Made by a program: the position numbers and the translations under genes. 64,000 nucleotides of DNA from Somniosus microcephalus (lineage: Eukaryota), in contig CM126211.1 of assembly GCA_052327205.1 (NCBI GenBank), forward strand, positions 16,678,001 through 16,742,000, given 5' to 3'. The notes under the pieces were generated by a model. That model was not told the DNA's origin and searched no databases. It worked only from the letters and a program-made list of their open reading frames with translations. This document shows, piece by piece, positions 11,716-60,942 of this stretch. Each line of letters begins with the position of its first letter. The stretch's first letter is position 1.

Positions 11716-12482
11716 AACATAGAAACATAGAAGGTAGGAGCAGGAGTAGGCCATTCGGCCCTTCGAGCCTGCTCCGCCATTCAATGTGATCATGGCTGAT
11801 CATCCAAATTCAGTACCCTGTCCCTGCCTTCTCCCCATATCCCTTGATCCCTTTAGCCTCAAGAAATATATCCAACTCTTTCTTGAATATATTTAATGAA
11901 CTGGCCTCCACCGCCCTCTGTGGCAGAGAATTCCACAGGTTCACCACTCTCTGGGTGAAGAAATTCCTCATTTCAGTCCTAAATGGCTTACCCCTTATCC
12001 TTAGACTATGACCCCTGGTTCTGGACTCCCCGGCCATCAGAAACATCCTTCCTGCATCTAGTCTGTCCAGACCTGACAGAATTTTATAGGTTTCGATGAG
12101 ATCCCCTCTCAATCTTCTAAACTCCAGTGAGTATAAGCCCAATCGACACAATCTCTCCTCATACGTCATTCCTGCCATCCCAGGTATCAGCCTGGTGAAT
12201 CTTCGCTGCACTCCCTCCATGGCAAGAACGTCCTTCCTCAGGTAAGGCGACCAAAACTGCACACAATACTCAAGGTGCGGTCTCACCAAGGCCCTGTACA
12301 ACTGTAGCAAGACATCCTTGTTCCTGTACTCGAACCCTCTTGCTACGAAGGCCAACATACCATTTGCCTTCTTAACCGCCTGCTGCACCTGCATGCTTAC
12401 CTTCAGCGACTGGTGCACAAGGACCCCCAGGTCTCTTTGCACTTCCCCTTCTCCCAATCTATTGCCATTCAAATAACAATCT
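11716..12482 (-). mobile_element. CR1 LINE 3' end, low divergence (open RT C-terminal frame)
   Basis: ORF 11810..12526 RDLGVLVHQSLK...LVRPHLEYCVQFWSPYLRKD...GIKGYGEKAG; tail catagaaacatagaa. Confidence 0.95.
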
Positions 12483-12536
12483 ATGAACTTCAAAGCAATA
12501 AATTGAGTCCATTGATTTGATGTCACAAAACACTAT

Positions 12537-24840: not shown

Positions 24841-24959
24841 CAAATTGCCTGAAGCTGAAGACTGTTTCAAACAGTGTTGAATGAGAATGAGTTACTTTTT
24901 TCCAAAATTAAATTAAGTTCTAAACAAATAATGATTATCACACTGCATTGGAACACCAT

Positions 24960-25795
24960 GGGCTGGATTTTCATTGAGGAGGTGGGTAGGAGGCGGGACT
25001 ACAACTTTCGGGGTTGTAGTCCCACCTCCATCGAGTTGTAGCCAACCCACGCGATTTAAACTTGATTGACCTTGTTGAGCCAGCCCAGCGGGCTCAGCAG
25101 GCCAATTAAGGGCCACCCGGCAACAGGTGACATCACAGATTTATATTTCATCTGTCAAGACCTTTTGACAGATGAAATATTAGCGTTTGACAGCTGTTTG
25201 AAGCTGCCAAACACTGACAATCTGTACTCTAAGTTAATTCCTTCCTCTCAGGATGATTTAGAGATCTCTCCGGAACAGAAAGCTGAATGATGCAATTTTT
25301 GACAGATCGCGGCCATTTTGCTTTCTGTGCCGGTGAGATGAGGGACTCCCGAGTCCTGAAGGAAGGAAGACTGTAAAGGTAAGTAAAATTTCTTTAAACA
25401 CTTTAAACACATCAAACACACTTACCTCTGCACTCATGCACCCATCACTCACCTGAACACCGGACATCTCGACCCCTCCAAGCCCTTCAGTCCGACGGCC
25501 CGCCTCGCTAACCTGGCGTGGCTTGGAGCCGTCGGGAATCCCACACTTCAAGAATGAAAATAGGGATTAAGCTAAAAACTGCCTGTTAACTACCTGTTAA
25601 CAGGCAGTTAATTGGCACTAATCCCCTTCCCGCCTCGGGGAGGTGGGTCCCAGTGCGGGTCGGGTACCCGCCTCCTTTGAAACTGGCATGGAGGCGGGTT
25701 GGGGGCGGGATGGGTTCGTGCCCCCCCTGATTTCGGGATTTTAACCCCCCACACGCCTCCAACCCCACCTCCACGGCCCAATGAAAATCCTGCCC
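24960..25795 (+). mobile_element. Harbinger-type MITE (family A, palindrome-rich)
   Basis: 17-bp TIR with one mismatch (gggctggattttcattg / caatgaaaatcctgccc), CAT TSD; three more copies in the window. Confidence 0.88.
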
Positions 25796-26006
25796 CATGC
25801 GCGCTACAACAGAAGATCTGGATTTTTATTACTTTTTCAAAAACGTGTTCTCCAGACATCTTTTAATACTACTGAAATTAATTGCAGCCCCCCCTCCCCC
25901 TTTCCCAAGGAAGAAAATGACAATTGTTTTCAAGAAAACTTGCATTTATATAGCACCTTTCACATCCTTGGGACACCCCAAAGTGCTTCGCAGCCAATGA
26001 ATTACC

Positions 26007-26263
26007 TGTTGTGTATGTAATATGTGTGCTACTTTGAACCTATGGACAGGACTGCACTACTTGTAGGGCGTAGTGATACGCAGTACCACTCCTGGCCATA
26101 GGGGTATAAATAGTTCTGTGGGTACTGATCTCCCCTCAGTTCCCGCCTGTGGGCATGAAGTAAAGACCTACGTATAGTCCCTACCTCCAACCAGTAAAGA
26201 CCTGTTTGAGTTATACGTTTAAGTCTTTGTGTTAATTGTTCAATACAATACACATACTTAACA
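26007..26263 (+). repeat. 5' LTR
   Basis: Differs from the 3' LTR by 3 substitutions and 1 indel (manual alignment); TATAAATA at 26105. Confidence 0.96.
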
Positions 26264-26264
26264 C

Positions 26265-26274
26265 TGGCGACGAG
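26265..26274 (+). promoter_or_regulatory. Primer-binding site TGGCGACGAG, complementary to the 3' end of tRNA-Ser(GCU)
   Basis: Lies 1 nt after the 5' LTR; complement of ...CTCGTCGCCA-3' (tRNA assignment from memory). Confidence 0.8.
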
Positions 26275-26937
26275 TCAGGTTCTTACCCTGCGGCAGTTGA
26301 AGAGAGGTTTCAAACATCACCACCCCACTAGAAGTAACAGGCTTTAGGACTCTGAAGCCTCCATCAGCGACTGAGCACTGGAGTGCAGCAGCCATCCTGA
26401 CAGCTTCCAGCGACTGACAGAAGTCTTTCTGCAGTTTCCTTGTTCAACCTAGGTGGTGGGGTAAGCCGTGCAGCGTTGGCTGCAAAGACAGGGCTGGGGA
26501 AGTTGGAGAAGATAAGGGCGATCGCAATCCCTGATAAGAGCCGCGGTGAAACGCGCGAGCGGGTAAGCCAGAGCCCGGGAGGGAGCGAGCAAGAGCCGCG
26601 CGAGCGGGTGAGCCAGAGGCCGGGAGCCGCTTCAAGTGCGAGGCGCAGCGCGGGCCAGCGATCAGGACCAAAGATAAGGGCCGCACTCGGACTGAAAGGC
26701 GCGGCGGCTGCAGAAGCTCAAGGTGCGAGAGCCGCGGTGCACAGCGCGGGCTATCGATCACGGCGAAGATAAGGGCCGCACTCGGGGGCTGAAGGGAGAC
26801 GGCGTCGGGGGACGGGTGAAGACCGCCAAGCGCGGGAAAACCGCCATTTTGTGGGCGGAGGACGACGGCAAGAGCGGGAAGCCGCCATCTTTGATAACAA
26901 GTAAAGAAAATAAAATCTGAGAAATTGCAAATCTACA

Positions 26938-29139
26938 ATGCCTAAACACGGGAATATTAGCACCTTTGATAGTGACCTCGAAGATTGGGCCATATATGTT
27001 GAAAGAGTAAAAAATTATTGTAAGGCCAATAAAATTCGTGACCAAGATAAAGCTCTAACATTATTAAATTTAATGGGTGCGAAGACATACGGGCAATTGA
27101 AACACCTGTTATCACCAGATGAACCGGCGGATAAGACGTTCGATGAGATTGTTACTGTCCTGAAAGATCATCTAAACCCCACGCCGCTGATGCTAGCGGA
27201 ACGATTTAAATTTTATGACAGAAGGCAGCTACAGCATGAAAGCAATGCTGAATATTTGCTGGAATTGCGTAAATTAGCGAAATATTGCCAGTTTCGAACG
27301 GGACTGACAGATGCACTACGAGACAAATTTGTGTGTGGTTTATTTAAACAGGATACACAAAAGCGACTGCTCGAGGAGAATGAGCTGACGCTTGAGAAGG
27401 CGGTCACTATGGCAGCAGCACACGAAGCCGCAGCGAGAGGCACGGCAGTAATGCAGCTACGGTCACCGGAGCTCAGTGCACACAAATTGGGTGTGAGTTC
27501 TGGCAAATGTTATCGTTGTGGAAAGACAACGCATGATCAGAACCAGTGTTGGTTTAAAAACCAAGAATGTAGAACTTGTGGTAGGCTTGGACATATAGCT
27601 AGAGTATGCAGGTCAGGGAAGAAGACCAGCAACAAGAAGTCACCGCAAGGAAAATACGCAAAGGTACACAAGGTGACCGAACAGGAGTCCGATTCAGACG
27701 CTAGCAGTAATGAACTGGCTAGCTTAAGCTGTAATGAACTGGCTAGCTTAAGAGTACTCAACGCTGGTAAGGGTGCAGGCCTCCAGACAATTTGGGTCAC
27801 TCTTCAGATAGAAGGAGTCCAAGTAAAACTGGAATTGGACACTGGATCGGCATTGACGGTCATAAATAAGAAAGATTACGGAAAGTTATTCCAACATATT
27901 CCCCTACAGGATACGGGGATTATATTGAAAACATACACGGGGCAAAGAGTGTACCCCATCGGGAAAATAGAGGTTGCAGTGGTCCACAAGGGCGAAGACA
28001 GTCAAATAATGGACTTATATGTGATATCTGAAGGAGGTTCTCCACTACTAGGACGGGAGTGGATTAGGAAAATGAATATGGACTGGCATTTCCTACAAAC
28101 AATAACGAGTGAGAACTCGGTGAAGATAGTCGGCCCAGACTCTGGAACGGATGATGGTAAGCCCAACTCAGGTGCAAAAGACAAAGTTTCAGCACAGAAT
28201 TCTACTGAGCAACAACAACATAGTTTAACTGTGGATTCTGAGTCTGGCAAGTCTACTGATGTGCCCATTTCTGAGGGACACCGGGCTCGAACTCAACTCC
28301 ATTTCAAACTACAACAGCAATTAGAACAAATGCTTCGCCGTTTTGAGCAAGAGTTGAATGCAACGAAAGAGTTCTTTGATATAGAGTTGGAGAATCTGGA
28401 AAGACAACAGAAGCAGCTGATGGAGAAAATGGAGCAGGAGCACACAAAACGTCTGATGTCAGAGGAGTTAACGGTCAGCCAACTCCTGCATATGCTGAAG
28501 GACAGGACTCTGAAATGGGAAAAACTTGAACACGAACTTCAATATTCAAACGAAAGGGGTTCGGAGCTCTCAAAGGTTATTGGAAGAGCTGAGGTGGCAA
28601 CACAGACTGAGATGACTGCAACAGAGCAGCCCTTGGATGCCAAAAGTACGCTGACTCACGTCAACGTAGAACAACAGACCGCTGAAACAGCTGCTCCGGT
28701 AGAGGGATTGAATAGTCCGATCAATCAATCTCCAAAAGAAGTTGAAGTAGTAAAATCTCAAATGAGGTCATTAGTAAACGACTTGCTGAAAGCCCAGAAA
28801 AAGCTGGATGAAGAGGTACGCATGAAGAAGTCTCTTCAGGAAAGATGTCTGGACTTGGAACAAAAGCTGGGTATGGAGGAAATAGAAGACCCTCTCGCTG
28901 GCCTAGATCAGGACGACACCGAATATTACTATGTCCTGTCCTGCCCAACTTGTAACTTCGACTCCCACCATACAGAAATCATGGAGGAGCACCGAAAGTC
29001 TACGGAACATCGGGAGAAGGTGGCTCTACTACGGAAAAAGGAGGAAGAGAAGGAGGAACTGCGCATGCAGCTGGCAGCTGACAGTGGAGCCCAGAGAGTC
29101 TCCAAGAAGCAGAAAAGGAAAAGTCGAAACAGAAGATGA
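26938..29139 (+). CDS. 733-aa chimeric Gag-protease-STK10-like-OPTN-like-zinc-finger polyprotein
   Basis: Uninterrupted ATG-to-TGA ORF. aa1-165 Gag capsid ([27 protein letters not shown]); two CX2CX4HX4C knuckles aa191-224; protease LDTGS aa300-304 and LLGREW aa370-375; host-like coiled coils follow. Confidence 0.92.
28273..28455 (+). other. STK10: Captured STK10 (LOK)/SLK coiled-coil (PKK-region) segment, aa446-506 of the ORF
   Basis: [57 protein letters not shown] versus remembered human STK10 [57 protein letters not shown]. Confidence 0.88.
28459..28869 (+). other. OPTN: Captured optineurin central coiled-coil segment, aa508-644 of the ORF
   Basis: [13 protein letters not shown]...EKLEHEL...EVATQTE...[43 protein letters not shown] versus remembered human [17 protein letters not shown]...ERLEVAL...EIETQTE...[43 protein letters not shown]. 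Confidence 0.85.
28942..29010 (+). other. Matrin/U1-type C2H2 zinc finger (C-x2-C-x12-H-x5-H), aa669-691 of the ORF
   Basis: [23 protein letters not shown] spacing. Confidence 0.65.
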
Positions 29140-29442
29140 CCCATCTGAACCATTATTACCTCTACCAGATCACACACGTGGTCCCTCCGAACGGAGCCAA
29201 TTCAGTTCGGAAGTTCAAACTGTTAAATCCATGGAAGGACTATTGAATGAGTCACTCCAGCAACGTGAACCGACTACACCACAGAGATTGAATCTGTGAA
29301 CTGTTTTCCGCAGAGACTGAATCTGTGATCTGTTTTGACATGAAGTTATCTATGTATCTATGTTATTCTGTTATGTAAACCTGAAGTTATATATGTATAT
29401 ATGTTATTACGTTATGTTAAATGGGGAGATGACTGTAAAGCT

Positions 29443-29455
29443 AGGAAGGGAGGAA
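29443..29455 (+). promoter_or_regulatory. Polypurine tract
   Basis: aggaagggaggaa directly abuts the 3' LTR. Confidence 0.9.
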
Positions 29456-29711
29456 TGTTGTGTATGTAATATGTGTGCTACTTTGAACCTATGGACAGGA
29501 CTGCACTACTTGTTGGGCATAGTGATACGCAGTACCACTCCTGGCCATAGGGGTATAAATAGTACTGTGGGTACTGATCCCCCTCAGTTCCCGCCTGTGG
29601 GCATGAAGTAAAGACCTACGTATAGTCCCTACCTCCAACCAGTAAAGACCTGTTTGAGTTATACGTTTAAGTCTTTGTGTTAATTGTTCAATACAATACA
29701 CATACTTAACA
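29456..29711 (+). repeat. 3' LTR
   Basis: Direct repeat of 26007-26263, followed by the TSD ttacc. Confidence 0.96.
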
Positions 29712-30653
29712 TTACCTTTGAAGCACAATCATTGTGTTGTGCAGGCAAACGCAGCAGCTGATTTGTGCACAGCAAGGTGCCACGTTCGCCAACCAAGATA
29801 AATAACCAGTTAATCTATTTTAGTAGGGTCGGTTTCAAGAGGGCACACGAGGTCGGGCACTTCCAACTGCCGAGAAAATCTTGCAATAATCATCATTATA
29901 AACAATATTTTATTTCACGGGCAACGTCGAATGGAATTTTCTCAACTGGCTCGCGTTCTATTTTGACAAGCTGAGAATAAACCTTCACAATTGAGAGAGT
30001 GGTCCTGTTAAACAATCATCTAGCGCTTCACTGAATTCAGCACAACTGCAGATATACGAGTGTGTTTAATTCTATGGGCGATGCTGGATTCTTTCCCCAC
30101 TATGCAATTGGTAATTATTATCCAGCGCATGAGTGAAGAGCCTCCAGGTGTCGTGTGCAGATCTGGGACGTGACTGCTGAATAAATACATTTCTTGGATA
30201 CTTTCTTTGTTATTACTAAATAAAATAGCCTTGTATGCTTCTTATATTGCTAATAAAAATAGAAATTAAGGAACGAAAGAAATACTCCTCAGCAGGCAGT
30301 GCACAGCAGATGACCAACTTCAAGTTGTGCAGCGGTTTTATGTGACGCTTGACCTGTGAAAGATTTATATGAATTCTGACCTGTGGAGGGAACGGTTCTT
30401 TGGCAAAAAATAAAGCTAATCATATTAAAATAGCGACAATGCCAATTAGAAAACTGTTTCTCTGAACTATTGACTCCGAGGTGATACAAATGACTGTCAG
30501 ATACAATTTCCCTACTTACAAAAATCAATTATTTCAAGGCTGTTTTCAGAAAAATCCAAACTTACTTGCAGATGCCAAAATCAGTAGCAGGAAAAACTGA
30601 GTCCATTTTCTTGCCTTCCTTCAAATGTGCTTTATGGAAACAAGTTAACACAG

Positions 30654-36233: not shown

Positions 36234-37737
36234 ACATAAGAGCTAAGAAATAGGAGCAGGAGTCGGCCATTCGGCCCCTCGAGCCTGCTCCGCCATTCAA
36301 TAAGATCATGGCTGATCTTCTACCTTATCTCCACTTTCCTGCACTATCCCCATTTCGTCCAGTGGTCATGAAAGGCACTATATAAATGCCAGTCTTTCTT
36401 TCTTTTCTTTATCCCTTGATTCCCTTAATATCCAAAAATCTATCGATCTCTGTCTTGAATATGCTCAACGACTGAGCTTCCACAGCCCTCTGGGGTAGAG
36501 AATTCGAAGATTCACCACCCTCTGAGTGAAGAAATGTCTCCTCATCTCAGTCCTAAATGGCTGACCCCTTACTCTGAGACTATGACCCCTGGTTCTGGAC
36601 TCCCCAGCCAGGGGAAACATCCTCCCTGCATCTACCCTGTCAAGCCCTGTAAGAATTTTGTATGTTTCAATGAGGTCACCTCTCATTCTTCTAAATTCTA
36701 GAGAATATAGGCCTAGTCTACTCAATCTCTCCTCACAGGACAATCCCCCCATCCCAGGAATCAGTCTGGTGAACCTTTGTTGCACTCCCTCTATGGCAAG
36801 TATATCCTTCCTTAGGTAAGGAGACCAAAACTGTGCACAGTACTCCAGGTGTGGTCTCACCAGGGCCCTGTATAACTGTAGTAAGACATCTTTACTCTTA
36901 TACTCAAATCCTCTTGTAATAAAGGCCAACATACCATTTGTTTTCCTAATTGCTTGCTGTACCTGCATGTTAACTTTCAGTGATTCGTGTACAAGGACAC
37001 CCAGACTCCTCTGAACACCAACATTTCCCAATCTCGCACCATTTAAATAATACTGTTTTTCTATTTTTCCTACCAAGTGGATAACTTCAAATTTCTCCAC
37101 GTTATATTCCATTTGCCATGTTCTTGCCCACTCACTTAGCCTGTCTATATCCCCTTGAAGCCTCTTTGCATCCTCCTCACAACTTACATTCCCACCCAGC
37201 TTTGTATCATCAGCAAACTTGGATATATTACATTTGGTCCCCTCATCCAAATCATTGATGTAGATTGTGAATAGCTGAGGCCCAAGCACTGATCCTTGCA
37301 GTACCCCACTAGCTACAGCCTGCCAACCCGAAAATGACCCGTTTATTCCTACTCTCTGTTTTCTGTCCGTGAACTAATTCTCAATCCATGCTAGTATATT
37401 ACCCCCAATCCCATGAGCCCTAATTTTGTTTAATAGCCTCTTGTGTGGCACCTTATCAAATGCCTTCTGAAAATCCAAATACACCACATCCACTGGTTCC
37501 CCCTTATCTATTCTGCTAGTTACAACCTCAAAAAACTCGAACAGATTTGTCAAACATGATTTCCCTTTCATAAATCCGTGTTGACTCTGCCCAATCCTAT
37601 TATTATTTTCTAAGTGCCCTGTTACCACGTCCTTAATAATAGATTCTAGCATTTTCCCTACTACTGATGTCAGGCTAACTGGTCTGCAGTTCCCCGTTTT
37701 CCCTCTCCCTCCTTTCCTAAATAGTGGGGTTACATTT
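36234..37737 (-). mobile_element. ~1.5-kb 5'-truncated CR1 LINE (RT domain)
   Basis: RPVSLTSVVGKMLE, QHGFMKGKSCLTNL, YLDFQKAFDKVPH, LGPQLFTIYINDLD, KFADDTK; a ~55-bp SINE tail is inserted at ~36356-36410. Confidence 0.95.
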
Positions 37738-51548: not shown

Positions 51549-52117
51549 GGGCAGGTGCAGGTTTCTTCAACCGGTAACATTCACTCTGTTTCTCTCTCCA
51601 CAGAGGCTGCCAGACCTTCTGAGTGTTCCCAGCATTTTCTGTTTTTTTTTCAGATTTCCAGCATTGTCTGTATTGTTTTAAGGCACTATTCAGCTGTTCC
51701 AGATAAGAGAGAACAATGTACATAATGCATCGACTGTATATTATTATATATAGTTTAAAAAAAAAGCCCTCTGACAGTTTTTATTTTGCATTAAGGCAGC
51801 ATGTGGTCTTAAAGTTCTACTGCGCCACTCCAAGGCTCAGTGACGATTCTTACAGAAACAACAGAGGTGTAATTAATGATTGACCTTATACTCCTCCATG
51901 TCTGTTGAGAAACTGTGGGTTTCCATATATAATTACACAGGCTGAGATCAATCACAAAAGACTAAAGATACCTTCTGTGCAAAACAGGCCACACTCAAGA
52001 ATGGCCTACTGGCGGGAAGGACCCCTGGTGTGTCTGCCATATTGGAATGTGCACAGAGGAGCATTTTCCGCTACAGCCTGGAAACAAATCGCAAGATTTC
52101 ACAGATTGAAACATGTG

Positions 52118-52958
52118 GGGCTGGATTTTCAGTCAGCAGTCGGGAAGGAGGCGGGACTATAACTTTCGGGTTTTAGTCCCGCCTCCATCGACGTCCGGCC
52201 AATCCACGCGATTTTCCCTTAATTGACCTTGTTGAGCCGCCCAGCGGGCTCAGCAGGCCAATTAAGGGCCACCCAGCAACAGGTGACGTCACAGACTAAA
52301 ATTTCATCTGTCAAGAGGTGTTGACAGATGAAATATCAGTGTTTCACAGCTGTTTGAAGCTGTCAAACACTGACAGTCTGACTTCTAACCTGAGTCCTTC
52401 TACGCAGACTCAGTTAGAACTCTCACCATCACTGAAAGTTGAAGGCTGTCACTTTTGACAGATCGCAGCCATTCAGCTTTCAGTGCCGGCTGAGTGATGG
52501 ACTCCCGACGCCTAGAGGAAGAAAGGCTGTTAAGGTAAGTACAGGTAATTTAAACTTCTTTACACGCTTTAGACACACCAAACACACTTACTTTTGCACT
52601 CATGCACCCATCACTCACCTGAACACTGACATCGCGACCCCTCCAAGTCCTTCAACCCGACGGCCCGCCTGCTCTAACCTGGCATGGTTTGGAGCAGTCG
52701 GGAATCCCACACGACACCCCTCAAAATAGGGATTAGGCTAAAAACTGCCTGTTAACTACCTGTTAACAGGCAGTTAATTGGCACTAATCCCTTCCCGCCT
52801 CGGGTCGGCGGGTCCCAGTGCGGGGCAGGTGCCCGCCTCCTTTGAAACTTACGTGGAGGCGGGTTTTGGGCGGGATGGTGTCGGGATCCCCGAATTCGGG
52901 ATTTTTGCCCCCCCGCACGCCTAAAAGCCCGCCTCACGGCACACTGAAAATCTGGTCC
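52118..52958 (+). mobile_element. Family A MITE
   Basis: gggctggattttcag / ctgaaaatctggtcc termini, GTG TSD; collinear with 24960-25795. Confidence 0.87.
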
Positions 52959-57271: not shown

Positions 57272-58111
57272 GGCCTAGATTTTCAGTGTGCTGTGAGGCG
57301 GGCTTTTAGGCGTGCAGGGGGCTAAAATCCTGAATTCGGGGGTCCCGACACCATCCCGCCCAAAACCCGCCTCCATGTAAGTTTCAAAGGAGGCAGGTAC
57401 CCGCCCTGCACTGGGACCCGCCGACCCGAGGCGGGAAGGGATTAGTGCCAATTAACTGCCTGTTAACAGGTAGTTAACAGGCAGTTTTTAGCCTAATCCC
57501 TATTTTGAGGGGTGCCATGTGGGATTCCCGACGGCTCCAAACCACGCCAGGTTAGAGCAGGCGGGCCGTCGGGTTGAAGGACTTGGAGGGGTCGTGATGT
57601 CGGTGTTCAGGTGAGTGATGGGTGCATGAGTGCAAAGGTAAGTGTGTTTGGTGTGTCTAAAGTGTGTAAAGAAGTTTAAATTACCTGTACTTACCTTAAC
57701 AGCCTTTCTTCCTCTAGGTTTCGGGAGTCCGTCACTCAGCCGGCACTGAAAGCAGAATGGCCGTGAGCTGTCAAAAGTGACAGCCTGCAGCTTTCAGTGC
57801 CGGTGAGAGTTCTAACTGAGCCTGCGTAGAAGGACTCAGGTTAGAAGTCAGACTGTCAGTGTTTGACAGCTTCAAACAGCTGTGAAACACTGATATTTCA
57901 TCTGTCAACACGTCTTGACAGATGAAATTTCAGACTGTGATGTCACCTGTTGCCGGGTGGCCCTTAATTGGCCTGCTGAGCCCGCTGGGCGGGCTCAACA
58001 AGGTCAATCAAGTGAAAATCGCGTGGATTGGCTGGATGTCGATGGAGGCGGGACTAAAACTCGAAAGTTGTAGTCCCGCCTCCTTCCCGACAGCTTAATG
58101 AAAATTGACCC
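57272..58111 (-). mobile_element. Family A MITE (inverted)
   Basis: Close reverse complement of 52118-52958; no matching TSD (ttt/cag). Confidence 0.87.
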
Positions 58112-58119
58112 CAGTGGGT

Positions 58120-58438: not shown

Positions 58439-59136
58439 ACTCTGTTAAAATAGAGGAGATGGGAATTAGATCTCAGTACGTTAGGCATTTGTATGATGAC
58501 ATTGCTGACGGTCACTCCTTCGCTAATGAGGTGAGAGTATATCAATGAATCAGTCATTTGTCCCAGCCTGTTAAAATGCTCGTGCCACAAAGCTCTGTTC
58601 ATAGTGCATGATGAGCATACATAGTGCCAGTAACATTGATATTTGCCAGTGACACATAGATGCACAATTTATGACATTGGTAACATCACCATGTGATGTC
58701 CAACATTGTCAATCAAACACCTGCCAACTTGTTGATTGTAAAATACAAATGTGTTTCGATTTTTATTTAAATTATTCAAAAAATATATACATGAACAGAT
58801 TTGATAGTTTGATCTATATATGAACGTTTTCATGTGAACATCTCTTGACATTCAAGCCAACACGATTCGTTAAAAAAAACACTGCATACTTGTTTCCAAC
58901 AGTGATTTTACAAAGTTCAAGCTTGGTGCTATAAACTCAAATTACTATTGAAATACTTTGAACTATTCTAAGATGTTTGTTTTCCATGAAGAGCCAGGAA
59001 TTTATTTCTAGGTGCTGTATGTGATAAGGTTCTGCAGGAAGTGTAAGGAAGGAGGCTCCAGTTTGGGTCCCTCTGACACCTTCTCCACAGAAGAACTGTG
59101 CACTCAGCTTGTGATAAAATGACCTGTTGAGTTATT

Positions 59137-59951
59137 GGGCAGGATTTTCATTGGGCCGTGGAGGCGGGATTAGAGGCGTGTGGGGGGGTTAAAACCGAAA
59201 TCGGGGGGCACGAACCCATCCCGCCTCCATGCCAGTTTCAAAGGAGGCGGGTACCCGACCTGAGCTGGGAGCCGCCTCCCCGAAGCGGGAAGGGGATTAG
59301 TGCCAATTAACTGCCTGCTAACAGGTAGTTAACAGGCAGTTTTTAGCCTAATCCCTATTTTTATTCCTGAAGTGTGGGATTCCCGACGGCTCCAAACCAT
59401 GCCAAGTTAGCGAGGCGGACCGTCGGGCTGAAGGGCTTGAGGGTTCGAGATGTCAGTGTTCAGGTGAGTGATGGGTGCATGAGTGCAGAGGTAAGTGTGT
59501 TTGGTGTGTGTAAAGTGTTTACCTTTTCTTACCTTTACAGCCTTCCTTCCTTCAGGTCTCGGAAGTCCCTCATCTCACCGGCACAGAAAGCAGAATGGCC
59601 ACGAGCTGTCAAAAGTTGCAGCATTCAGCTTTCTGTTCCGGAGAGATCTCTAAATCAGCCCGAGAGGAAGGAATTAACCTGGAGTACAGACTGTCAGTGT
59701 TTGACCGCTTCAAAGAGCTGTCAAACGCTGATATTTCATCTGTCAAAAGCTCTTGACAGATGAAATGTCAATCTGTGATGTCACCTGTTGCCGGGTGGCC
59801 CTTAATTGGCCTGCTGAGCCCACTGGCTAGGTTCAACAAGCTCAATCAACTGAAAATCACGTGGGTTGGCCACAACTCGATGGAGGCGGGACTACAACCC
59901 CGAAAGTTGTAGTCCCGCCTCATACACGCCTCCAGTATCAAAATCCAGCCC
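59137..59951 (-). mobile_element. Family A MITE (inverted)
   Basis: att|gggcaggattttcattg ... aaaatccagccc|att; closest to 24960-25795. Confidence 0.88.
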
Positions 59952-60942
59952 ATTGTGTCCAACGCCCAAAGGACAATCAAGCAAATAAGGAAAAAGATTA
60001 CTAGCCTCAGGAAATCCTTCATGGCAAGGCCTGCCAGTTTTTCTATCTACCAAATAGAGGGGCAAAACATACCTGACAAAAAAGACTTCTTCTCAACCTG
60101 TTACACCATGACTGAGGCTGTATGCTGATCTGTCAGACAAAGACAGTTCTTTCAAAGCCGTACCTGCATGCCCATTGGAACTACTGGAAAGGTGAGCCCA
60201 CAAAAGCATTACAGCATAACTTAACTGGACGATGCCTTTTCATTCAGCGGTGATGCAGGGTGGACAATTTGGTCTCACTCTACATTGTCTTTAAGCTTCC
60301 AACGTCTCAGCACAACTTCTGTCCTTGCAGGACAAGGTGGCGCAAAAACAAATGGGGACAAACGTCAATGAGGAAAGGCCCCCGTGATATTAAAGCCTTA
60401 GGTTCCTTTCAGGCAGTGCTGGACATCCTGGGACCAGAATATTGAGGGAGCGAAACAGAATGCAGCCAGAATCCTCCCCAAAGCCAAGGGTTAGCACCAT
60501 CCTTTTACACTTATCCTTACTCTATTCACTCACAAGCATGAAATCCAGCATATCATCAAGACACACATTTGAGGTACGCAATCATTGTGTGAAGGGATGT
60601 CTTACAGCTAGCATTCTTCCATATATTCCTCTTCTCGTTCAATAAGTGACCCCCCCCCCCCCCCCCACCGCCCCGCCAAGAATCAGCCCTCCCTGCCCGA
60701 AACGGCCAGTAACCCAGCACCTTCTGTGAAGCACGCCACTGGTAGGATTCACCAGCACAGGTACTTATATTTAAATAGTGAGTGTGAGGAAAGTGGACTG
60801 AGTGACTCACAAAGCACAAGTGACCAGATGCGTGTGATGGTGGCAGAGAAGATGCAGCAGCCTGCTGCTCAGAAGTCCAGCTCAAGTCCTCCTTGATTTT
60901 TCCAATCATCCTTGCTGGTGTGACAGCGGCAACAGAGGGTTC

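What the first reader, a model, noticed from the sequence alone, without database searches (positions are those of the whole stretch)
26007..29711. Young LTR retrotransposon whose RT/integrase is replaced, in frame, by pieces of several host genes (Gag-PR-STK10-OPTN-ZnF)
Seen: complete cis structure (LTR pair, 5-bp TSD, PBS, PPT) and one stop-free 733-aa ORF. After the protease (ending ~aa389) it continues into coiled coils, not into RT; there are no YxDD, RNase H or HHCC/DDE motifs. Established: Mag-clade Gypsy elements have two CCHC knuckles followed by PR-RT-RH-IN, and retroelements can capture co-packaged mRNAs by template switching, as in the gag-onc fusions of acutely transforming retroviruses. 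Inference: this is a non-autonomous, trans-mobilised element that captured at least two unrelated host mRNAs in series. Every junction kept the frame, which suggests selection on the chimeric protein, i.e. a mobile exon-shuffling vehicle or a capsid carrying host-mimic domains.
Basis: partly seen in the sequence, partly recalled or inferred. Interest (0 to 1): 0.93.

Follow-up and report, generated by a model that had tools for sequence, protein, structure and literature searches.

The report
Shark retrotransposon carrying captured host RNAs
A shark jumping gene, present in thousands of copies, has swapped its copying enzymes for spliced pieces of three host genes, the first apparently taken as one full turn of a circular RNA, and the intermediate stages still sit in the same genome.

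Summary
Real, and richer than reported. 26007-29711 is a complete non-autonomous Gypsy-type LTR element. Its 733-aa frame is Gag-protease plus spliced pieces of STK10, OPTN and DNAJC21, with no RT, RNase H or integrase. One junction motif occurs 9,568 times in the genome, and sense RNA is seen in one stranded library.

The genome keeps the intermediates. Family B (1,111 junction matches) carries five STK10 exons in back-spliced order, exactly one 1,245-nt turn plus 11 repeated letters: the mark of a reverse-transcribed circular RNA. Family C adds OPTN. The window's family A adds DNAJC21 and deletions.

Silent changes exceed a spectrum-matched null for STK10 (P=0.002) but not OPTN (P=0.2). Each ingredient has precedent (Bs1; Tan 2016; Dong 2016). 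I did not find this scale, the graded series or the one-turn capture in the library searched. Whether the cargo does a job is open.

The parts
26002..26006 (+). 5' target-site duplication TTACC
   Evidence: same 5 letters at 29712-29716
26007..26263 (+). 5' LTR (257 nt, TG...CA, TATAAA at 26105-26110); first ~167 nt are 85-92% like the LTRs of related loci L014-L017
26265..26274 (+). Primer-binding-site motif TGGCGACGAG, also found in relatives L014 and L017; priming tRNA not identified
   Evidence: no tRNA gene in the window
26275..26937 (+). GC-rich leader with short direct repeats; differs between copies
26938..29139 (+). Single ORF, 733 aa: Gag-PR-STK10-OPTN-DNAJC21
   Evidence: intact in 21 of the 27 nearest copies
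26938..27687 (+). Gag with two CCHC knuckles (aa ~190-224); 73% aa identity (Gag-PR) to families B/C, 50% to the autonomous relatives
27784..28106 (+). Aspartic protease, DTG at aa 301
28107..28455 (+). STK10, three in-frame pieces (aa 400-425, ~449-478 and 617-676 of P0035, including the start of the PKK coiled coil), joined by 69-nt and 417-nt deletions
28447..28880 (+). OPTN aa ~226-380 of P0003: four host exons joined without introns, with 21-nt and (this subfamily) 15-nt in-frame deletions; lacks the NEMO-type N-terminal domain and the C-terminal domains
28873..28890 (+). Short return to STK10 (MEEIED, from the far side of the back-splice) through an 8-nt microhomology
28891..29130 (+). 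DNAJC21-derived C2H2 (zf-met/jaz type) zinc finger and basic SKKQKRK tail, strongly diverged
   Evidence: 10 of 10 hits are DNAJC21-type proteins, 9 of them named so, best E 9.4e-5; alignments; Atlas 0.96 to zf-met/jaz clusters
29131..29251 (+). STK10 remnant (aa ~327-354 and ~376-388), out of frame with the ORF; it lies downstream of aa 617-676, so the permuted order is kept
29252..29302 (+). Remnant of the pol 3' end (...PQRLNL*), as in autonomous L015/L017 and family B
29444..29455 (+). Polypurine tract
29456..29711 (+). 3' LTR (256 nt)
29712..29716 (+). 3' target-site duplication TTACC

Best explanation
This is one copy of a roughly 10,000-copy non-autonomous Gypsy (Mag-like) family in a shark genome, built by repeated template switching during reverse transcription. 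Step 1: RT jumped from the pol 3' end onto a co-packaged back-spliced circle of five STK10 exons, copied one full turn plus 11 letters, and jumped back just after the protease, so RT, RNase H and integrase were replaced in frame (family B). The product is shown; the circle as template is inferred. The stop after one turn fits RNase H having already nicked the part of the circle copied first (inference). Step 2: a 417-nt deletion and capture of spliced OPTN over the back-splice junction (family C). Step 3: further deletions, a Gag-PR and LTR from other lineages of the group, and capture of a DNAJC21 finger with a basic tail that now ends the ORF (family A). The order is inferred from nested shared junctions. 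The element makes Gag-PR-cargo and is copied in trans by autonomous relatives that share its LTR ends, PBS and PPT (inferred). Selection acts on the element's own replication: strongly on Gag-PR and on an open frame, weakly on the cargo, which most likely serves as a tolerated helical spacer ending in a basic, possibly RNA-binding or nuclear-targeting tail, without the host genes' signalling role.
For: Host STK10 exons on C8 have AG and GT/GC ends, total 1,245 nt without a stop, and match family B at 97.5-100%. B joins the last donor to the first acceptor. Entry and exit motifs lie exactly 1,245 nt apart in 3 of 3 B loci, and both persist in 3 of 3 C loci. Only one such acceptor and one such donor exist in the assembly, 6.5 kb apart in normal order. 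Six host OPTN exons are joined in C at 96-99% apart from one 21-nt deletion. Microhomology at 8 of 8 junctions examined. Counts of 9,568 and 1,111, controls 0. A 5-bp TSD in 5 of 6 two-LTR loci checked, 4 of 5 letters in the sixth. L017 has RT, RNase H and integrase in one 1,348-codon frame. dN/dS about 0.16 for Gag and 0.15-0.31 for protease. Silent codons host-to-window 26 observed vs 15.4 expected, P=0.003; shifted frames and the out-of-frame remnant not significant. Families A and C end in long basic runs of different origin, and B keeps the Arg-rich pol tail.
Against: The circle was not seen as RNA, and B copies would mimic its junction reads. The autonomous loci found are only 50% identical in Gag-PR, and no closer helper was found among the loci fetched. 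OPTN alone shows no silent excess (P=0.20), amino-acid changes are only slightly fewer than expected (48 vs 53.9, P=0.06), and 3 of 3 C copies show no signal. Some host-to-window silent changes arose on the host side. B and C loci were picked by protein searches that favour open frames. The host DNAJC21 gene was not located. No protein product was tested.
Confidence: 0.72

Rival explanations
1. The cargo is pure stuffer. Capture happened as described, but only an open frame (escape from nonsense-mediated decay, cis-preferential packaging after translation) and genome length are selected. In-frame junctions also arise because microhomologies between coding RNAs tend to be in codon phase.
For: Other frames hold 19-49 stops. 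The cargo is repeatedly deleted (417, 138, 69, 318, 21 and 15 nt). OPTN P=0.20 and C copies show no signal. Tan et al. report 14 of 17 young cases in frame (PMC5131818, passage).
Against: Silent excess in STK10 pieces (15 vs 7.1, P=0.002), absent from the out-of-frame remnant and from shifted frames. All four zinc ligands are kept while about half of the finger differs from teleost DNAJC21.
Confidence: 0.4
2. The cargo is an evolved tool of the element. The coiled coils help the Gag fusion assemble, and the finger plus basic tail bind RNA or direct nuclear entry, which lets family A out-compete its sisters and helpers.
For: The most derived family has the highest count of the two counted (9,568 vs 1,111). 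AlphaFold2 on the single sequence gives one continuous helix across the STK10/OPTN junction, aa 446-560, pLDDT mostly above 90. The DNAJC21 piece differs between L012 and the window at 13 sites in 54 codons, changing 11 codons' amino acid with 1 silent. Basic C-termini recur.
Against: The excess of amino-acid changes in the finger region is not significant (P=0.07 for at least 11 changed codons). Family A also changed its Gag and LTR, which could explain its success. The finger did not fold in the single-sequence model. Family C was not counted.
Confidence: 0.3
3. The permuted STK10 order came from a linear RNA (trans-splicing, exon repetition or a since-lost genomic tandem duplication), or from an extra template jump on a normal mRNA.
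For: Sequence cannot tell back-splicing from trans-splicing. Dong et al. note that non-colinear junctions can have other sources (PMC4897178, part 1 of 2 of the text).
Against: The junction falls exactly on a donor and an acceptor. Both sites are single-copy in the assembly. Entry and exit coincide within 11 nt on a 1,245-nt unit, which independent break points would give about 2 times in 100 (my estimate).
Confidence: 0.12
4. The family is kept for the host, for example as a dominant-negative Gag fusion that poisons particles of the autonomous elements, or as a source of small RNAs against STK10, OPTN or DNAJC21.
For: Abundant sense RNA in one library. Truncated Gag products are known restriction factors in yeast (recalled, no call).
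Against: Changes private to single copies look neutral (95 amino-acid-changing, 30 silent, 4 stops, inflated by one poorly aligned locus). The family is dispersed and still near-identical, as expected of a selfish burst.
Confidence: 0.08

Closest known systems
Maize Bs1 LTR retrotransposon
   Same: LTR element that took up pieces of three host genes into a chimeric ORF reported as transcribed and translated (PMC13317346, passages).
   Different: Plant. Here a vertebrate, about 10^4 copies, intermediates preserved as large families, and one source circular. I did not read Bs1's copy number or its primary papers.
LTR-mediated retroposition in metazoans (Tan et al. 2016, PMC5131818)
   Same: Internal ORFs replaced by mRNA pieces through microsimilarity, multi-parent chimeras, sense transcription, further rounds as non-autonomous elements (passages read).
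   Different: In the passages read, those are small sets of retrocopies (15 in fly, 3-10 in other species) and most older ones had loss-of-function changes. Here whole families amplified with the fusion frame open, and Gag and protease stayed under purifying selection.
circRNA-derived pseudogenes, mouse circRFWD2 (Dong et al. 2016, PMC4897178)
   Same: Back-splice junction fixed in genomic DNA, multi-copy (33), no poly(A), LTR sequence enriched nearby (part 1 of 2 of the text read).
   Different: That paper calls the mechanism mysterious. Here the circle sits inside a complete LTR element with both switch points visible, spans exactly one turn, is in frame with Gag-PR and has at least 1,111 copies.
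Mag clade of Ty3/Gypsy (Metaviridae)
   Same: Two CCHC arrays (PMC2577118, passages). Autonomous relatives have a single Gag-Pol frame with PR-RT-RH-IN and no env.
   Different: RT, RNase H and integrase are lost here. Clade placement was not tested against reference RTs.
Acutely transforming retroviruses (gag-onc fusions; recalled)
   Same: Helper-dependent genome in which pol is replaced by spliced host sequence fused to Gag.
   Different: No env, germ-line amplification, no catalytic host domain kept (the STK10 kinase and the DnaJ domain are absent), no sign of a growth effect.

Membership tests
Ty3/Gypsy LTR retrotransposon | Paired TG...CA LTRs, short TSD, PBS, PPT | tested here: met
Ty3/Gypsy LTR retrotransposon | Gag with CCHC and aspartic protease | tested here: met
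   motifs; Pfam hits below cut-off in the window, protease above cut-off in L051
Ty3/Gypsy LTR retrotransposon (autonomous) | RT-RNase H-integrase after the protease | tested here: not met
   absent from the window; present in that order in relative L017, so the window copy is a non-autonomous derivative
Mag clade | Two CCHC arrays in the nucleocapsid | tested here: met
   feature from PMC2577118 passages (shared with Micropia/Mdg3)
Mag clade | Single Gag-Pol frame without env in autonomous members (feature recalled) | tested here: met
   L017, 1,348 codons
Mag clade | RT phylogeny with named Mag elements | not testable with these tools
LTR-mediated retrocopy (Tan 2016) | Intronless host sequence replacing internal ORFs | tested here: met
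   STK10 five exons, OPTN six exons; DNAJC21 host exons not in hand
LTR-mediated retrocopy (Tan 2016) | Microsimilarity at switch points | tested here: met
   3-9 nt at 8 of 8 junctions examined; no null model run; DNAJC21 and pol junctions not testable without their sources
LTR-mediated retrocopy (Tan 2016) | Sense transcription from the element | tested here: inconclusive
   run X7 about 13:1 in the direction expected for sense RNA over the DNAJC21 part; run X8 shows no bias; start site not mapped
circRNA-derived retrocopy (Dong 2016) | Non-colinear exon-exon junction at true splice sites | tested here: met
   family B; in the window the junction itself is overwritten by OPTN but the permuted order remains
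circRNA-derived retrocopy (Dong 2016) | Only exons of the circle, no poly(A) | tested here: met
   all 93 matches at 47 scored loci lie within aa 290-704, give or take alignment overhang; three loci read in full
circRNA-derived retrocopy (Dong 2016) | The parent circle exists as RNA | not testable with these tools
   needs RNase R-treated RNA and host-allele-specific reads
Acutely transforming retrovirus | Retroviral (env-bearing) helper and a transforming host domain | tested here: not met
   no env-type Pfam hit in L017; kinase domain of STK10 not captured

The most novel reading that the evidence does not exclude
A vertebrate retrotransposon lineage is evolving a new protein module in real time. 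It began by capturing one turn of a host circular RNA, added two more host RNAs, and trimmed them into a coiled-coil, zinc-finger and basic-tail cargo that is selected because it improves the parasite's own packaging or nuclear entry. The one-turn-plus-11-nt insert would also be a direct record of how LTR reverse transcriptase handles a circular template.
Probability: 0.3. Interest if true: 0.95.

Novelty: new variant of a known kind. Interest (0 to 1): 0.86.

Why it matters
It gives a nearly complete natural record of how an LTR element picks up, trims and stacks host coding sequence, with each stage still present as a family in one genome. Family B offers a concrete, testable mechanism for circRNA retrotransposition, which Dong et al. 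(PMC4897178) left open: template switching inside an LTR particle, ending after one turn. If all 9,568 junction matches were full length, family A would be about 35 Mb, roughly 0.5% of the assembly (my arithmetic; an upper bound). The thousands of intronless STK10 and OPTN look-alikes will also mislead annotation and RNA-seq mapping in this species. With so many copies, the old question of whether genes captured by retroelements are selected for the element can be tested with real statistical power.

Tried and rejected
PDB sequence searches found only nucleocapsid-type fingers for the whole protein, nothing useful for the OPTN part and no hit for the finger part. Pfam did not recognise the OPTN part.

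The finger's source was missed by a single-sequence word search (0 of 70 candidates), by phmmer on cluster representatives (2 hits: OPTN and one unrelated) and by the first Atlas call (best 0.88). A two-sequence profile found it. Looking for host DNAJC21 with PF21884 gave 2 exon-sized hits; the one read looks like DNAJC2 by recall. The host finger exons therefore remain unlocated and no host-to-element comparison was possible for them.

My first neutral test counted only amino-acid-changed codons and gave P=0.06 for STK10. The NG86 values (STK10 0.32, OPTN 0.44-0.46 against C copies) look stronger than the spectrum-matched test and should be read with it. The host OPTN exons carry two single extra letters relative to the elements, so only gap-free codons were used.

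The run index listed no RNA holder; that is no evidence either way. The LTR search returned only 10 matches because common words are skipped, and candidate counts of 21,798-42,268 are not copy numbers. Contig C1607 repeats this locus with its flanks and was not counted as independent. Earlier findings of the scan held nothing on this family. No fold search or complex prediction was run.

Literature: searches (listings only) showed no report of these families. The library lacks most subscription journals, and repeat databases were not available, so an existing Repbase or Dfam entry is not excluded. Supplements were not opened; those of PMC4897178 and PMC5131818 may show how the mouse RFWD2 copies sit in LTR elements.
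Full report
What is there. The window is G000:C10:16678001-16742000 in a 6.45-Gb assembly. The best protein hits are from sharks; I did not pursue the species. Bases 26007-29711 form a complete LTR element: LTRs of 257 and 256 nt that differ by 3 substitutions and 1 gap, TSD TTACC, a PBS motif and a polypurine tract. One ORF of 733 aa runs from 26938 to 29139. It has two CCHC knuckles and a DTG protease. It has no YxDD, and the Pol of a relative finds nothing in it. 'Young' holds in sequence terms only; shark substitution rates are low (recalled), so no age in years is given.

The cargo. Residues 425-733 hit shark optineurin (E 3e-46) and shark STK10. Alignments place STK10 aa 400-425, about 449-478 and 617-676 at aa 391-506, and OPTN aa 226-380 at aa 505-649. 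The last 80 residues were found only with a two-sequence profile. All 10 hits have the DnaJ plus zinc-finger make-up of DNAJC21 and 9 are named so; the named ones are from bony fish, best E 9.4e-5. The four zinc ligands and the basic SKKQKRK tail are colinear with DNAJC21, while about half of the finger has changed. DNAJC21 is a 60S assembly J-protein with two C2H2 fingers (PMC6710477, passages). After the stop codon, STK10 resumes in another frame (aa about 327-388), followed by the last codons of pol.

It is a large family. A DNA search scored 40 of 63 candidates, all 95-100% identical. A pattern across the STK10/DNAJC21 junction matches 9,568 times with up to 2 mismatches; the reversed control matches 0 times. 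Of 30 loci fetched, 26 gave a readable 3' flank and 24 flanks are distinct. After dropping the window itself, its duplicate contig and one tandem duplicate, 21 of 27 have an intact ORF; these are the nearest copies, so this is not the family average. Six more copies all end at KRKSRNRR. Reads were laid at 82% likeness. In RNA run X7 the DNAJC21 part has depth about 920 in the direction expected for sense RNA against about 70, the unique flank has 0, and 5,624 of 34,123 laid reads are 99% or more alike. Run X8 shows similar depth in both directions. These runs carry one of two species labels and are not the assembled individual.

The intermediates. Searching the genome with whole STK10 gave 47 scored loci, of which 46 show intronless aa 376-704 followed at once by aa 290-389 and one a shorter second piece. 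Three were read in full: LTR, Gag-PR, permuted STK10, pol tail, LTR, all in one frame (family B). The host gene was found by splice-site patterns, one acceptor and one donor, 6.5 kb apart on C8. Its five exons (135, 675, 131, 124 and 180 nt) sum to 1,245 nt and match B at 97.5-100%. B joins the end of the fifth exon to the start of the first. An 11-letter host motif stands at both the entry and the exit, exactly 1,245 nt apart. This junction matches 1,111 times, mostly with the host's own letters in the 100 rows listed. Searching with whole OPTN gave 66 scored loci with longer OPTN pieces. Three were read. L051 and L053 have B's ends, a 417-nt STK10 deletion and OPTN aa about 131-428 laid over the back-splice. 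L052 has a further 138-nt deletion that creates the MEEIED junction seen in the window. Six host OPTN exons on C17 are joined in these copies. The window shares these junctions and adds its own. The nested order B, C, A follows from that. Eight of 8 junctions examined have 3-9 letters shared by both sources.

Mosaic origin and helper. Gag-PR of A is 73% identical to B/C and 50% to autonomous loci. Its synonymous distance to B/C is 0.8-1.1 in Gag, against 0.28 between the host and the STK10 cargo. So A's Gag-PR most likely came from another lineage by recombination (inference). A's LTR shares its first 167 nt (85-92%), its ends, the PBS motif and the PPT end with L014, L015 and L017, which encode Gag-Pol; RT, RNase H and integrase domains were confirmed for one of them. 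That group is the likeliest source of enzymes in trans. This is inferred from shared cis signals only.

Selection. By my tally from the alignments, 12 of 13 rearrangement junctions on the path to the window keep the frame; the exit from DNAJC21 does not. At one chance in three each, that is P=1.7e-5. This overstates the case. The other frames are full of stops, microhomology between coding RNAs is probably biased to codon phase, and B and C were found by protein searches. Codon tests are more telling. Gag and protease are clearly constrained. For the cargo, with the observed substitution types re-dealt at random, silent codons are 15 vs 7.1 expected in STK10 (P=0.002), 11 vs 8.4 in OPTN (P=0.20) and 26 vs 15.4 together (P=0.003). 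Amino-acid changes are 48 vs 53.9 (P=0.06). The +1 and +2 frames and the out-of-frame remnant show nothing, and neither do 3 of 3 C copies. The host side contributes few changes: host and B differ at only 7-8 silent sites in 417 codons. I read this as weak constraint on the translated cargo, short of proof of a function. AlphaFold2 without an alignment draws aa 446-560 as one helix across the STK10/OPTN joint and does not build the finger.

How it most likely works. Shown: the structure, the sources, splicing, the permuted order, the junction series, amplification, and RNA from the family. Inferred: co-packaging of host RNAs, template switching, a circular template with RNase H ending synthesis after one turn, trans-mobilisation, and any role for the cargo. 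I put about 0.95 on serial capture by template switching, 0.85 on the circle, and 0.3 on a specific selected function of the cargo.

Comparison. Multi-gene capture by LTR elements is known from maize Bs1 (PMC13317346 and PMC5408686, passages) and from animals (PMC5131818, passages). circRNA-derived pseudogenes with nearby LTR sequence are known in mouse, mechanism unresolved (PMC4897178, part 1 of 2). Two CCHC arrays fit the Mag clade (PMC2577118, passages), but placement by RT was not tested. Ten searches of the held library (listings) showed no report of these families, or of a one-turn circRNA inside an intact LTR element. Verdict: a new variant of a known kind, unusual in scale and completeness; interest 0.86.

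Noticed in passing
L051 and L053, OPTN part (about aa 186 of P0003): Family C keeps an 'SFVEI' motif like optineurin's LC3-interacting region (label recalled). Family A has deleted it.
   Followed up: no
3' ends of ORFs in L051-L053: Family C ends in a poly-arginine run made from the pol tail, while A ends in a lysine/arginine run from DNAJC21: two separate routes to a basic C-terminus.
   Followed up: partly
G000:C8:167193683 (L056): One intron of host STK10 has a GC donor (GC-AG intron).
   Followed up: no
L059:656-794 and 1347-1540: Two host OPTN exons each carry one extra letter in a short homopolymer relative to the element copies; an assembly error or a real allele.
   Followed up: partly
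window 28939 and 28465, run X8 loose ends: Hundreds of RNA reads leave the window sequence at these places, one set reading like a variant of the finger's N-terminal flank: further transcribed sub-families exist.
   Followed up: no
L012:4301-4462 vs window 28891-29060: The DNAJC21 piece differs at 13 sites in 54 codons, nearly all amino-acid-changing, against 27 sites in about 600 codons elsewhere in the ORF.
   Followed up: partly
G000:C1607 (L011, L018): A 26-kb contig repeats this locus at 100% with its flank: probably a redundant haplotig.
   Followed up: yes
L035, L021, L014, L016, L017:8238-9998: Nested or clustered Gypsy elements: family A copies inserted in other Gypsy pol genes, four related LTRs within 7 kb in L016, and an unrelated Gypsy Gag-Pol beside L017.
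   Followed up: no
window 24945-25798 (also 52105-52952, 57278-58113, 59134-59965): An 850-nt interspersed repeat, four copies in the window at 83-89%, lies just left of the element.
   Followed up: no
window 11813-12532 and 36468-37373, minus strand: Decayed LINE reverse-transcriptase fragments of CR1/L2 look (label recalled).
   Followed up: no
window 27703-27750: A 24-nt in-frame tandem duplication in the Gag-protease linker, absent from L012.
   Followed up: no
G000:C41:31584181 and C17:58361008-58366411: A second NEMO-domain locus (probably IKBKG, not checked) and a zuotin-domain gene that reads like DNAJC2.
   Followed up: partly
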